From: Escherichia coli
GTDB lineage: Bacteria > Pseudomonadota > Gammaproteobacteria > Enterobacterales > Enterobacteriaceae
DNA length: 64,000 nucleotides
Assembly: GCF_048403405.1 (NCBI RefSeq)
Contig: NZ_CP183129.1
Direction: 5' to 3' (one strand)
Made by a program: the position numbers. Below are positions 36,001 to 39,000 of this stretch, piece after piece. Position 1 is the first letter of the stretch; each line of letters begins with the position of its first letter.

Positions 36001-39000
36001 GATGGATAGCAGGTCAGGGATATACGGCATTTATTCTTTCTTACAGAATGCCCTCCGTTAATGGTTATTATTCCTTTGCAGATGCGAAGAATGCCCTGAA
36101 CTTTATTTCTTACTGGGCCGGAATGTCGGAGAGAACATTTAAGAGTGTTGGATGTATGGGGTTTTCGGCAGGTGGTCATCTTGCTGGATATATTACTCAT
36201 CTCCATTATGAGGAAGAGACTTCTGTGCGTCCTGACTGGATGGCTCTGATATATCCAGTTATATCTCTTGACAGGAGTATTGCTCATCAGGGATGCCGGA
36301 AACGTCTTCTGGATGCAGGTGAAAGTGAATATTCAGCCAGTCTTGAAAATAGTGTTACAGAGTATATGCCACCAGTCTTTATTGTGCATGCAACAGATGA
36401 TAAGGATGTTCCAGTTATTCATTCTCTGAGATATTTTAACTCTATTCGGGATAAGGGACATCATGCAGAAGCTCATTTTTTTGATAAGGGAGGTCATGGA
36501 TTTGGTGTATCCGGAAAAAATGGATATCCGATAGAAAAATGGCAAAGCCTGCTTCTGGAATGGCTTGCGGAACATAAGTTTTATTGAGAAATCAAATTAC
36601 AAGTGATAAATATATTTAATGATGAGGCATTTATGAAAAAATATTATCCACTATTAACTGTAATTCTTCTTGGTTTACCTTTGTGCTCTCAGGCATTAAC
36701 TCTTAATCTACGTGGGGGATACAGAAGCGCCAGTCACGCTTATGAAACGTTGATTCAGGTTAGTCAGGGGTGGAATAATGGTTGGTGGGCAAGTTTTGAG
36801 TCAAACACCTGGAATACAATTCACAACAATGAAAATGAATTGTTTGCACTCAATTATAATAAAATAGATATAAATAAAACATATAAAATAGATGACAAAT
36901 GGGCTCTAATCCCAGGGATTCAGACACAATGGATGTCAGCAGGAAGTCAGTATAACCCTTATCTGAAAATTTCGTATCAGGCAACGCCAGATCTTAATCT
37001 GGCCTTACGCTATCGCTATGACTGGAAAGCTTTCCGACAGACGGATTTAGATGGCAACAGGGCGCGTAATGATCAGCATCAGTTTGATGGTTATGTGACA
37101 TACAAAATTAATGATTCATGGTTGTTTGCATGGCAGACCACGGTATATACGAAGGTTAATAATTTCAAATATGGGAATCATAAAAAAACAGCAACTGAAA
37201 ATGCATTTGTTCTGCAATATAAAATGTCACCGGTGTTCACCCCATATATAGAATATGATTACTTGGATAAACAAGGGGTGTATAAGGGGAAAGATAATAA
37301 ACATGAAAATAGTTACCGTGTCGGTGTTCTGATTAATTTTTAAAAGGTGATTACAATGAAAGTGAAAAACTTTATATATCTTCCCTTCTGCTTGTTTATT
37401 GGAACGTCGGTAGCCGGAGCTTTACCGGAAATTCCTGAACCATTTAAATATGGTGTAGGAGGGATTGAGAATGGTAAAATATATATAGGACTGGGAAGTC
37501 TGGGAAATAACTGGTATATGATAGATACAAACCAGAGTGAAAAAAAATGGACTAAGATAGCGCAATGGCCGACAGTTCCCAGAGAGCAGGCAACAGCTAC
37601 TATTATTGATGGTAAGATCTATGTATTTGGAGGAATTGGAAAAGATACAAGTGGAGTCATAACCTTACAAAAAGATGTCTATTCCTATGATATTGCTAAA
37701 GATAAATGGGAAAAATTGATGACCCGTCCCCCTGTATCTCTTGCCGGTCATGTTTCTTTTATCCATAATGGTCATGCGGTATCTACTGGTGGTGTAAATG
37801 AGAATATTTTTAATGGATACTTTTCAGATGTCGAGTTATCAAAAGGGAATTCCGCGCTGACAGAGAAAGTCAACAGGGATTATTTTAGTAAACCTGCTGA
37901 TGATTATTTTTTAAATAATCATATAATTTCTTATGACCCGTCAAAAAACCAGTGGAAGAACCTGGGAACGACTCCATTTCCGGGAACTGCTGGTTCATCG
38001 GTGATTTTTGCAGAACAGCAAATTTATATACTGGGAGGGGAGAGAAAACCGGGGCTTCGTTCTGTTAGATCCTGGACGGGGGAGCTTTCGCATGATCGAA
38101 TTAAATGGTCTGAACTTCCACCAGTAGCTTCACCCGAGGGGGTGTCAGGAGCATATGCCTCTGTTATTGATGGAAATATCTTTCTGGCCGGTGGTGCATA
38201 TTTCCCGGGAGCGGCAGAAAAGTATAGCAATGGTGAATACTGGTCTCATAAAGGACTGGATAAAGCCTATTCAAAAGAGATATATCAGCTAATAAAAAAT
38301 GACTGGAAAAAAGTTGGTTCTTTGCCGGAAGGACTTGCTTATGGTGTAAGCCTGCCCTGGCAGGGGGGATGCTCATTCTGGGGGGGAGAAAAAAGATGGT
38401 AAAGCTGTTTCAGATGTTATTTATCTGAAAAAAAATGACAAACAAATAAAGATTGTTAAATAACTGTAATGCAGGTGACTGTATTAGTTGTTCAGTCACC
38501 TGAGTTATTTTAATGGGGTTTATAATGAATAAAGATAGATCTTTAAATGAAATGATGTTAAGCTTGTTTAATAAATCAACTATTGTTGACTTGTCAAGTG
38601 AGACAATATCTGAGAGTAAATCTCTTTCAGGCCGTATTTATCAGGATCCTGAACATAACGGGGAATTTGAACTTGATTGTGTATTGACAGATATTTATGC
38701 TCCTCAGTTAATTATTTTTTTACCAGATAAACCAAATGGAACAGGAATATTGATTATTCCCGGGGGGGCTACCAGGCTGTTATGTTAGATAAGGAAGGTA
38801 CAGCTCTTGCTCCAGAGTTTTTATCTCAGGGCTATACATTATTTGTTCTTAGTTACAGATTACCATCGCCAGTTGAGGGAGAAAATATAAACAAAACTTT
38901 TATTGATGCAATATCTGCAATGCTTTATATTCGTAAGAATGCTGATAAATGGCATCTACAGCGTCATCGTATTGGTGTATTAGGATTTTCTGCTGGGGGG

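What the first reader, a model, noticed from the sequence alone, without database searches (positions are those of the whole stretch)
38361..38402. NanM-like gene ends prematurely within G6/G7/A6 runs while a NanM-like C-terminus continues in another frame
The called ORF ends ...LPWQGGCSFWGGEKRW, but a shifted frame encodes ...GGEKKDGKAVSDVIYLKKNDKQIKIVK, which aligns with the remembered NanM C-terminus (...GGETAGGKAVTDSVLITVKDNKVTVQN). The switch falls in consecutive homopolymers (38363..38368, 38380..38386, 38389..38394).
Basis: seen in the sequence. Interest (0 to 1): 0.4.

Follow-up and report, generated by a model that had tools for sequence, protein, structure and literature searches.

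The report
Basecalling errors truncate a nanM gene
The early stop in this E. coli sialic-acid mutarotase (NanM) gene is almost certainly a long-read sequencing error, two G runs each called one base short, and not a real truncation, so the finding is ordinary.

Summary
The ORF 37356..38402 ends ...GGCSFWGGEKRW*, the G6, G7 and A6 runs are where stated, and a NanM-like tail continues in another frame to a stop at 38461-38463. Two frame changes are needed, not one: at the G6 run and at the G7 run. The A6 run plays no part.

The window is an E. coli pathogenicity island of the CFT073 type. Of 689 complete E. coli genomes with this locus, 576 have G7+G8 and an intact 369-aa NanM. Only 9 share the window's G6+G7. 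Re-inserting one G in each run restores the common reference protein exactly.

Over 64 kb the window has only 8 private differences from its closest good references. Three are G-run contractions and three lie inside GATC (Dam methylation) sites (P about 1.6e-5). All 26 long A/T runs are unchanged.

The same G-run contractions, and GATC C>T calls of the same kind, recur in unrelated lineages and differ between near-identical sister genomes and between assemblies of one strain. All 21 G-run changes are contractions.

This is the published nanopore error signature. Two neighbouring genes are split in the same way. Verdict: assembly artefact (about 0.9), of low interest.

The parts
37356..38402 (+). 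Called nanM-like ORF, 348 aa (351 aa from the upstream GTG at 37347). Residues 1-338 equal the intact NanM. The last 10 residues (CSFWGGEKRW) are out of frame.
   Evidence: NCBIfam NF010730 (N-acetylneuraminate epimerase) scores 461 bits and covers profile positions 8-362 of 384.
38363..38368 (+). G6 run, which is G7 in 576 of 689 complete genomes. This is the first missing G and moves the reading frame.
38369..38379 (+). Short stretch between the runs that encodes MLIL of the true protein in a second frame.
38380..38386 (+). G7 run, which is G8 in the references. This is the second missing G.
   Evidence: The same run is G7 in one ATCC 25922 assembly and G8 in at least six others.
38387..38463 (+). 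True C-terminal tail EKKDGKAVSDVIYLKKNDKQIKIVK plus the stop codon (38461-38463), in a third frame.
   Evidence: In one search, adding one G to each run gives a protein identical to the CFT073 protein WP_000865296.1 (369 aa, no differences).
38389..38394 (+). It is unchanged in all references and not involved.
38466..38508 (+). Strong hairpin followed by a U-rich stretch, 3 nt after the true stop. It fits the end of the full-length gene.
   Evidence: -20 kcal/mol, z = -5.1. The consensus terminator scan did not call it.
38762..38768 (+). G7 run, G8 in the references. It splits the next gene, an alpha/beta hydrolase (38513-39447), into ORFs of 91 and 221 aa.
   Evidence: In one search adding one G restores a 311-aa protein.
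40872..40876 (+). GATTC where the references have GATC. The extra T splits the sialate O-acetylesterase (40317-41304) into ORFs of 193 and 144 aa.
   Evidence: In one search removing the T restores the 328-aa reference protein exactly.
37466..37466 (+). C>T at the C of a GATC site inside nanM (silent). Shared with Nord58 and C25.
38678..38678 (+). C>T at the C of a GATC site in the hydrolase gene (R56C). Shared with Nord58 only.

Best explanation
The gene is an ordinary, intact nanM (periplasmic N-acetylneuraminate mutarotase) belonging to the second sialic-acid gene cluster on a CFT073-type pathogenicity island of extraintestinal pathogenic E. coli. In this assembly two long G runs near its 3' end were each called one base short (G7 as G6, G8 as G7). 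This creates two artificial frameshifts and a false stop at 38402. The real coding sequence runs to 38463. What is shown: the run lengths differ from nearly all other genomes, restoring them regenerates the reference protein exactly, and the window's few other private differences fall at G runs and GATC sites. What is inferred: the cause is long-read (most likely nanopore) basecalling or consensus error. Such errors under-call long G/C homopolymers and miscall bases at Dam-methylated GATC sites. No reads were available to confirm this.
For: (1) Population. 576 of 689 complete E. coli genomes with the locus have G7+G8 exactly and 9 have G6+G7. The intact 369-aa protein is on at least 1000 contigs. 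The window's 348-aa version is on 3, all from NCBI records and none from Logan or ENA, the longest chromosome-sized. (2) Repair. Adding one G per run gives WP_000865296.1 with no differences. That protein covers NanM profile positions 8-383 of 384, against 8-362 for the window ORF, and aligns with YjhT 2uvk through the tail. (3) Error signature in the window. It has 8 private differences in 64 kb against MS 69-1 and DA33137. Three are G-run contractions and three are inside GATC sites (two C>T, one +T). GATC covers 1.18% of bases, giving P(at least 3 of 5) = 1.6e-5. All 26 A/T runs of 7-9 bases are unchanged, while 3 of the 4 G runs of 7 or more are shortened. (4) The closest sharer, Nord58, has about 20 further private differences, concentrated at GATC and GCCGGC-like motifs. 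The four differences it shares with the window are all at a GATC site or a G run, and none is an ordinary SNP. (5) Homoplasy and replicate disagreement. Real SNPs split the twelve aligned sequences into two lineages, yet the contractions and GATC C>T calls occur in both. Three Taiwanese isolates, 439, 446 and 463, whose genome lengths differ by at most 56 bp, disagree at 4 such sites within 8 kb. One ATCC 25922 assembly has G7/G7 while at least six others have G7/G8. There are 21 contractions and no expansions. (6) Within the window's lineage, the T at 37466 occurs only in C25 and Nord58, and both also have G6/G7. (7) Literature. In nanopore R10.4.1 assemblies C>T and G>A errors dominate, they are methylation-induced, and GATC loses accuracy at its G and C (PMC11610603). 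Methylation-induced nanopore errors are widespread (PMC11610573).
Against: No reads or sequencing-platform metadata were available, so the error is inferred rather than seen. One G8 run (4102-4109) is called correctly in the window, so under-calling is not universal. Six of the eight private differences fall within 3.4 kb of the AT-rich nan island. Part of this clustering is expected, because three of the four long G runs are there, but the three GATC events clustering there is not fully explained. A G8 tract is intrinsically slippage-prone. The single-deletion allele (G7/G7, 357 aa) also appears on a few short contigs, one of them with only 3.7x coverage, that are probably from short-read data. 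Real variation at this tract therefore exists or cannot be excluded elsewhere.
Confidence: 0.9

Rival explanations
1. Real pseudogenisation. This strain has truly lost one G in each of the two tracts, and one in the hydrolase tract, so nanM makes a protein that lacks its last 31 residues and is probably misfolded.
For: G7 and G8 tracts are natural slippage hot spots. The nan island is accessory and nanM is non-essential: a K-12 nanM mutant shows at most a 20% growth-rate loss (PMC3658417). The single-deletion allele occurs on a few short-read-type contigs.
Against: It would need three independent -1 events within 400 bp, plus changes at three GATC sites, in a strain that otherwise has only 2 ordinary private SNPs in 64 kb and no change in 26 long A/T runs. 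The second deletion adds nothing once the first has broken the frame. The same combination recurs in unrelated lineages and differs between near-identical sister genomes. The double-deletion protein was found only in NCBI records, with a chromosome-sized longest contig.
Confidence: 0.06
2. Phase variation. The G tracts in nanM and the neighbouring esterase act as contingency loci that switch sialic-acid scavenging genes on and off by slipped-strand mispairing. Differences between clonal isolates would then be real.
For: There are three G tracts of 7-8 bases within 400 bp in two adjacent genes of one pathway. Tract length differs among clonal or serial assemblies: the Esc series, the trio 439/446/463 and ATCC 25922.
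Against: There are 21 contractions and no expansions. The variation co-occurs with GATC and GGTCTC miscalls in the same assemblies. 576 of 689 genomes are in the ON configuration and none was seen with a longer tract. The tracts sit at the 3' end of nanM, inside Gly-Gly codons of a Kelch repeat, which is explained by coding need.
Confidence: 0.035
3. Programmed recoding. The full-length NanM would be made from the G6/G7 sequence by ribosomal frameshifting or transcriptional slippage on the G runs.
For: Only that homopolymers sit at both shift points.
Against: Two separate shifts 17 nt apart would be required. The frameshifted arrangement is not conserved: 576 of 689 genomes encode the protein in one frame. 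No recoding is needed in the standard allele.
Confidence: 0.005

Closest known systems
E. coli K-12 NanM (YjhT), N-acetylneuraminate mutarotase, PDB 2uvk
   Same: It belongs to the same family: NF010730 scores 497 bits for the intact allele and TIGR03547 also matches. It aligns over 345 residues at 46% identity, including the C-terminal tail. It has an N-terminal signal-like sequence. It sits next to a NanC/KdgM-type porin and sialate esterases, as in the nanCMS operon (PMC3658417).
   Different: It is a second, island-borne copy in an AT-rich nan cluster on a pathogenicity island beside the aerobactin, sat and iha genes, and is present in only 689 of 5426 complete E. coli genomes. In the window its 3' end is disrupted by two 1-base contractions.
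Nanopore systematic consensus errors (homopolymer under-calling and methylation-motif miscalls)
   Same: The window shows contraction of long G runs, C>T at the C of GATC, an indel inside a GATC site, recurrence at the same sites in unrelated assemblies, and disagreement between assemblies of one strain. This matches the published description (PMC11610603; PMC11610573).
   Different: The platform of the window's assembly is unknown, and one G8 run (4102-4109) is called correctly.
Homopolymer-tract contingency (phase-variable) genes of Neisseria, Haemophilus and Campylobacter (from general knowledge)
   Same: The poly-G tracts lie inside coding sequence, and their length sets the reading frame.
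   Different: No expansions were seen. The tracts are at the 3' end rather than near the start. The variation tracks assembly quality. The in-frame state dominates the population.

Membership tests
NanM / YjhT N-acetylneuraminate mutarotase (NCBIfam NF010730, TIGR03547) | Score above the curated cut-off of the family model | tested here: met
   The window ORF scores 461 bits and the intact allele 497 bits against a cut-off of 416. For TIGR03547 the scores are 450 and 478 against a cut-off of 256.
NanM / YjhT N-acetylneuraminate mutarotase (NCBIfam NF010730, TIGR03547) | Full-length coverage of the beta-propeller, including the C-terminal strands | tested here: not met
   The window ORF, as called, covers the profile only to position 362 of 384, and its last 10 residues are out of frame. 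The feature is met once one G is restored in each run (8-383 of 384, identical to WP_000865296.1).
NanM / YjhT N-acetylneuraminate mutarotase (NCBIfam NF010730, TIGR03547) | Sequence homology to the solved YjhT structure | tested here: met
   2uvk_A, E = 9e-108, residues 22-366 against 2-346. Identity is 46%.
NanM / YjhT N-acetylneuraminate mutarotase (NCBIfam NF010730, TIGR03547) | Genomic context with sialic-acid uptake and catabolism genes under NanR | tested here: met
   The neighbours are a lyase, ManNAc kinase, MFS transporter, two alpha/beta hydrolases, a KdgM/NanC-type porin, nanR and a sialate O-acetylesterase. Regulation by NanR was not tested.
NanM / YjhT N-acetylneuraminate mutarotase (NCBIfam NF010730, TIGR03547) | Alpha-to-beta Neu5Ac mutarotase activity | not testable with these tools
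   This needs an NMR or enzyme assay, as in Severi et al. 2008, cited in PMC3658417.
Long-read (nanopore-type) systematic assembly error | Indels restricted to long homopolymers, with a bias towards contraction | tested here: met
   In the window 3 of the 4 G runs of 7 or more are shortened. Across twelve aligned sequences there are 21 contractions and no expansions.
Long-read (nanopore-type) systematic assembly error | Substitutions and indels enriched at methylation motifs (C>T and G>A at GATC) | tested here: met
   P = 1.6e-5 for the window, and 4.7e-9 when Nord58's two private changes within the nan island are added. The pattern is shown and matches the literature.
Long-read (nanopore-type) systematic assembly error | Independent assemblies of the same strain or clone disagree at the site | tested here: met
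   For ATCC 25922, CP158443 has G7/G7 while at least six other assemblies have G7/G8. The isolates 439, 446 and 463 disagree with each other. So does the Esc series.
Long-read (nanopore-type) systematic assembly error | Read-level evidence or platform metadata for the window's own assembly | not testable with these tools
   No reads or assembly metadata are available. A paper search for the closest strain found nothing relevant.
Phase-variable contingency locus (slipped-strand mispairing) | Homopolymer tract within coding sequence whose length sets the frame | tested here: met
Phase-variable contingency locus (slipped-strand mispairing) | Both gains and losses of repeat units, independent of sequencing quality | tested here: not met
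   One search shows only contractions, and they co-occur with GATC and GGTCTC miscalls. One search shows the association with the GATC>GATT call.
Programmed frameshift or transcriptional slippage gene | Frameshifted arrangement conserved among homologues | tested here: not met
   576 of 689 genomes encode the protein in a single frame; the intact protein is on at least 1000 contigs.

The most novel reading that the evidence does not exclude
The three G7-G8 tracts in nanM and the adjacent esterase could be real slippage-prone switches. They would turn off the island-borne sialic-acid scavenging genes in a fraction of uropathogenic E. coli cells, and part of the tract-length variation seen between near-identical isolates would then be real phase variation rather than error.
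Probability: 0.04. Interest if true: 0.45.

Novelty: not a real feature. Interest (0 to 1): 0.04.

Why it matters
As biology it matters little, because the gene is a standard, intact island-borne nanM. As quality control it is useful. This window carries at least four consensus errors that break three adjacent genes of one pathway, and the RefSeq record of the nearly identical Nord58 assembly annotates the short NanM as a normal protein (WP_322471823.1). Anyone scoring pseudogenes, gene presence or allele types (cgMLST) in this island from long-read-only assemblies would be misled. The G7/G8/G8 tracts and the GATC sites listed here are recurrent trouble spots across many public E. coli genomes.

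Tried and rejected
- A paper search for strain Nord58, to learn its sequencing platform, returned only snoRNA (SNORD58) papers.
- The consensus terminator scan found nothing after the gene. Direct folding then showed a strong hairpin.
- I considered a mismatch-repair-deficient mutator strain. I rejected it because 26 long A/T runs are untouched, only 2 ordinary substitutions exist in 64 kb, and mutators do not target GATC sites.
- I considered that the window and Nord58 form a real clade that inherited the deletions. I rejected it because all four shared differences lie at error-signature sites and none is an ordinary SNP, and because the same calls appear in a second lineage.
I rejected it because two shifts are needed.
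- I did not use the metagenome or genome collection scans, structure prediction or the representative-protein search. The E. coli genome collection answered the question.

Full report
**1. The observation**

The sequence is as described. An ORF starting at GTG 37347, which RefSeq-style annotation starts at ATG 37356, ends at 38402 with ...LPWQGGCSFWGGEKRW*. The runs are G6 (38363-38368), G7 (38380-38386) and A6 (38389-38394). Translating the other frames shows 'GGMLILGG' in a second frame between the two G runs. A third frame reads 'GGEKKDGKAVSDVIYLKKNDKQIKIVK*' and ends at 38463.

The true protein path therefore needs two frame changes, one at each G run. The four residues 'CSFW' in the called ORF are already out of frame. 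The A6 run is not involved.

**2. What the gene is**

The window is E. coli. A 1221-base query around the gene matches 689 of 5426 complete E. coli genomes at 95% identity or more, annotated 'N-acetylneuraminate epimerase'.

The gene lies in a second, AT-rich sialic-acid cluster. Its members are a lyase, a ManNAc kinase, an MFS transporter, an esterase, a KdgM/NanC-type porin, nanM, an esterase, nanR and a sialate O-acetylesterase. The cluster sits on a pathogenicity island beside Ag43, the aerobactin genes, sat and iha.

The intact allele (CFT073, WP_000865296.1, 369 aa) covers the NCBIfam NanM model from position 8 to 383 of 384 (497 bits). The window ORF stops at profile position 362 (461 bits).

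NanM is the periplasmic mutarotase that speeds the alpha-to-beta conversion of released sialic acid. It is non-essential (PMC3658417).

**3. The run lengths are atypical**

Nearly all matching genomes align over 1223 bases where the window has 1221. With 91-93-base queries, 576 of 689 genomes are identical to the CFT073 version (G7+G8). Only 9 are identical to the window version (G6+G7).

Adding one G to each run in the window regenerates WP_000865296.1 with no differences. In the large protein collection the intact protein is on at least 1000 contigs, which is the counter's cap. The window's 348-aa version is on 3 contigs, all from NCBI records, the longest chromosome-sized.

The true stop at 38461-38463 is followed 3 nt later by a strong hairpin (-20 kcal/mol, z = -5.1) and a U-rich stretch.

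**4. Why this is an assembly error and not a mutation**

*(a) Whole-window census.* Against the two closest good references (MS 69-1 and DA33137) the window has only 8 private differences in 64 kb:

| Position | Change | Context |
|---|---|---|
| 38362 | -G | G7 > G6 (nanM) |
| 38379 | -G | G8 > G7 (nanM) |
| 38761 | -G | G8 > G7 (hydrolase) |
| 37466 | C>T | C of GATC |
| 38678 | C>T | C of GATC |
| 40874 | +T | GATC > GATTC |
| 3295 | C>A | no motif |
| 44639 | G>A | no motif |

GATC sites cover 1.18% of the sequence, so the chance that at least 3 of the 5 non-homopolymer differences fall in them is 1.6e-5. All 26 A/T runs of 7-9 bases are unchanged, while 3 of the 4 G runs of 7 or more are shortened.

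*(b) Nord58.* This is the only complete genome identical to the window over the gene. It has about 20 further private differences in the same 64 kb, concentrated at GATC and GCCGGC-like motifs. The four differences it shares with the window are all at a GATC site or a G run.

*(c) Twelve-sequence alignment of 7.8 kb of the island.*
- Ordinary SNPs define two lineages, but the G-run contractions and GATC C>T calls occur in both.
- The three Taiwanese isolates 439, 446 and 463, whose genomes differ in length by at most 56 bp, disagree at four such sites within 8 kb.
- There are 21 contractions and no expansions.

*(d) Replicate assemblies.* One ATCC 25922 assembly has G7/G7, while at least six other assemblies of that strain have G7/G8.

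*(e) Association.* Within the window's lineage, the GATC>GATT call at 37466 is found only in C25 and Nord58, and both also have G6/G7.

*(f) Literature.* The pattern matches published descriptions of nanopore assemblies. C>T and G>A errors dominate, they are caused by methylation, and GATC loses accuracy at its G and C (PMC11610603). Methylation-induced errors are common across species (PMC11610573).

**5. Collateral damage**

The same kind of error splits two neighbouring genes. The alpha/beta hydrolase (38513-39447) is broken by G8>G7 at 38762-38768. The sialate O-acetylesterase (40317-41304) is broken by the extra T at 40872-40876. Reversing each change restores a full-length protein. The esterase then matches the reference exactly. 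The hydrolase differs only by R56C, which is the GATC C>T call at 38678.

**6. Rivals**

- **Real pseudogenisation.** It needs three independent G-tract deletions plus three GATC-site changes, in a strain with almost no other private variation.
- **Phase variation.** It is weakened by the absence of expansions and by the link to assembly noise. It is not fully excluded, because the single-deletion allele occurs on a few short, probably short-read contigs, one at only 3.7x coverage.
- **Programmed recoding.** It is excluded by the in-frame majority and by the need for two shifts.

**7. Limits**

No reads or platform metadata for the window's assembly could be consulted, so the cause is inferred. 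One G8 run (4102-4109) is called correctly. The concentration of the three GATC events within 3.4 kb of the nan island is only partly explained.

**8. Verdict**

This is an intact, known gene, with its 3' end corrupted by two homopolymer under-calls. Novelty: not a real feature. Interest is low, apart from its value as a warning for annotation and typing.

Noticed in passing
window 38513-39447 (G run 38762-38768): The alpha/beta hydrolase after nanM is split into ORFs of 91 and 221 aa by a G7 run that is G8 in the references. Adding one G restores a 311-aa protein. The same contraction is seen in C25, A1.S1.126 and UID2309220041.
   Followed up: yes
window 40317-41304 (GATTC at 40872-40876): The sialate O-acetylesterase is split into ORFs of 193 and 144 aa by an extra T inside a GATC site. 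This change is private to the window. Removing the T restores the 328-aa reference protein exactly.
   Followed up: yes
window 37466 and 38678: There are two C>T calls at the C of GATCG sites. The first is silent in nanM and the second gives R56C in the hydrolase. Both are shared with Nord58. The 37466 call also appears in a second lineage and differs among the near-identical isolates 439, 446 and 463.
   Followed up: yes
window 4102-4109: A G8 run in a DUF5983 gene on the minus strand. The window, DA33137 and Nord58 have G8 with an intact gene. MS 69-1 has G9 and its gene is flagged 'frameshifted'. This is another length-unstable or error-prone G tract.
   Followed up: partly
Nord58 (L009/L010) at window-equivalent positions 13568, 15966, 16969, 17678, 19478 and 29229: Nord58's private differences cluster at GCCGGC-like sequences (G>T, C>T and +C). 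This suggests a strain-specific methyltransferase motif that disturbs basecalling in that assembly. The window does not share these differences.
   Followed up: partly
L002 (CFT073 NC_004431), equivalent to window 38967-39097 and 39951-40207: The original 2002 CFT073 record has N bases and a dense cluster of indels and substitutions in the hydrolase and nanR genes. Its nanR is annotated only as a short 'FCD domain-containing protein'. Later CFT073-type genomes have an intact nanR, so the old reference looks wrong here.
   Followed up: partly
window 38243-38246 (GGTCTC): In other assemblies (A1.S1.126, 446, 463, C25, UID2309220015) this spot carries a +T or a C>T/T>C change, which breaks nanM a second time in some of them. 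The window itself is clean here. It looks like another recurrent miscall site.
   Followed up: partly
window 3295 and 44639: Two private substitutions (C>A and G>A) with no homopolymer or GATC context. They may be the strain's only real SNPs in the window, or errors at an unrecognised motif.
   Followed up: no
window 32406-41304: A complete second sialic-acid gene cluster, AT-rich compared with the 50% GC window, sits on the island between IS66 elements and the aerobactin operon. It is present in only 689 of 5426 complete E. coli genomes. I did not look for experimental work on its role.
   Followed up: no
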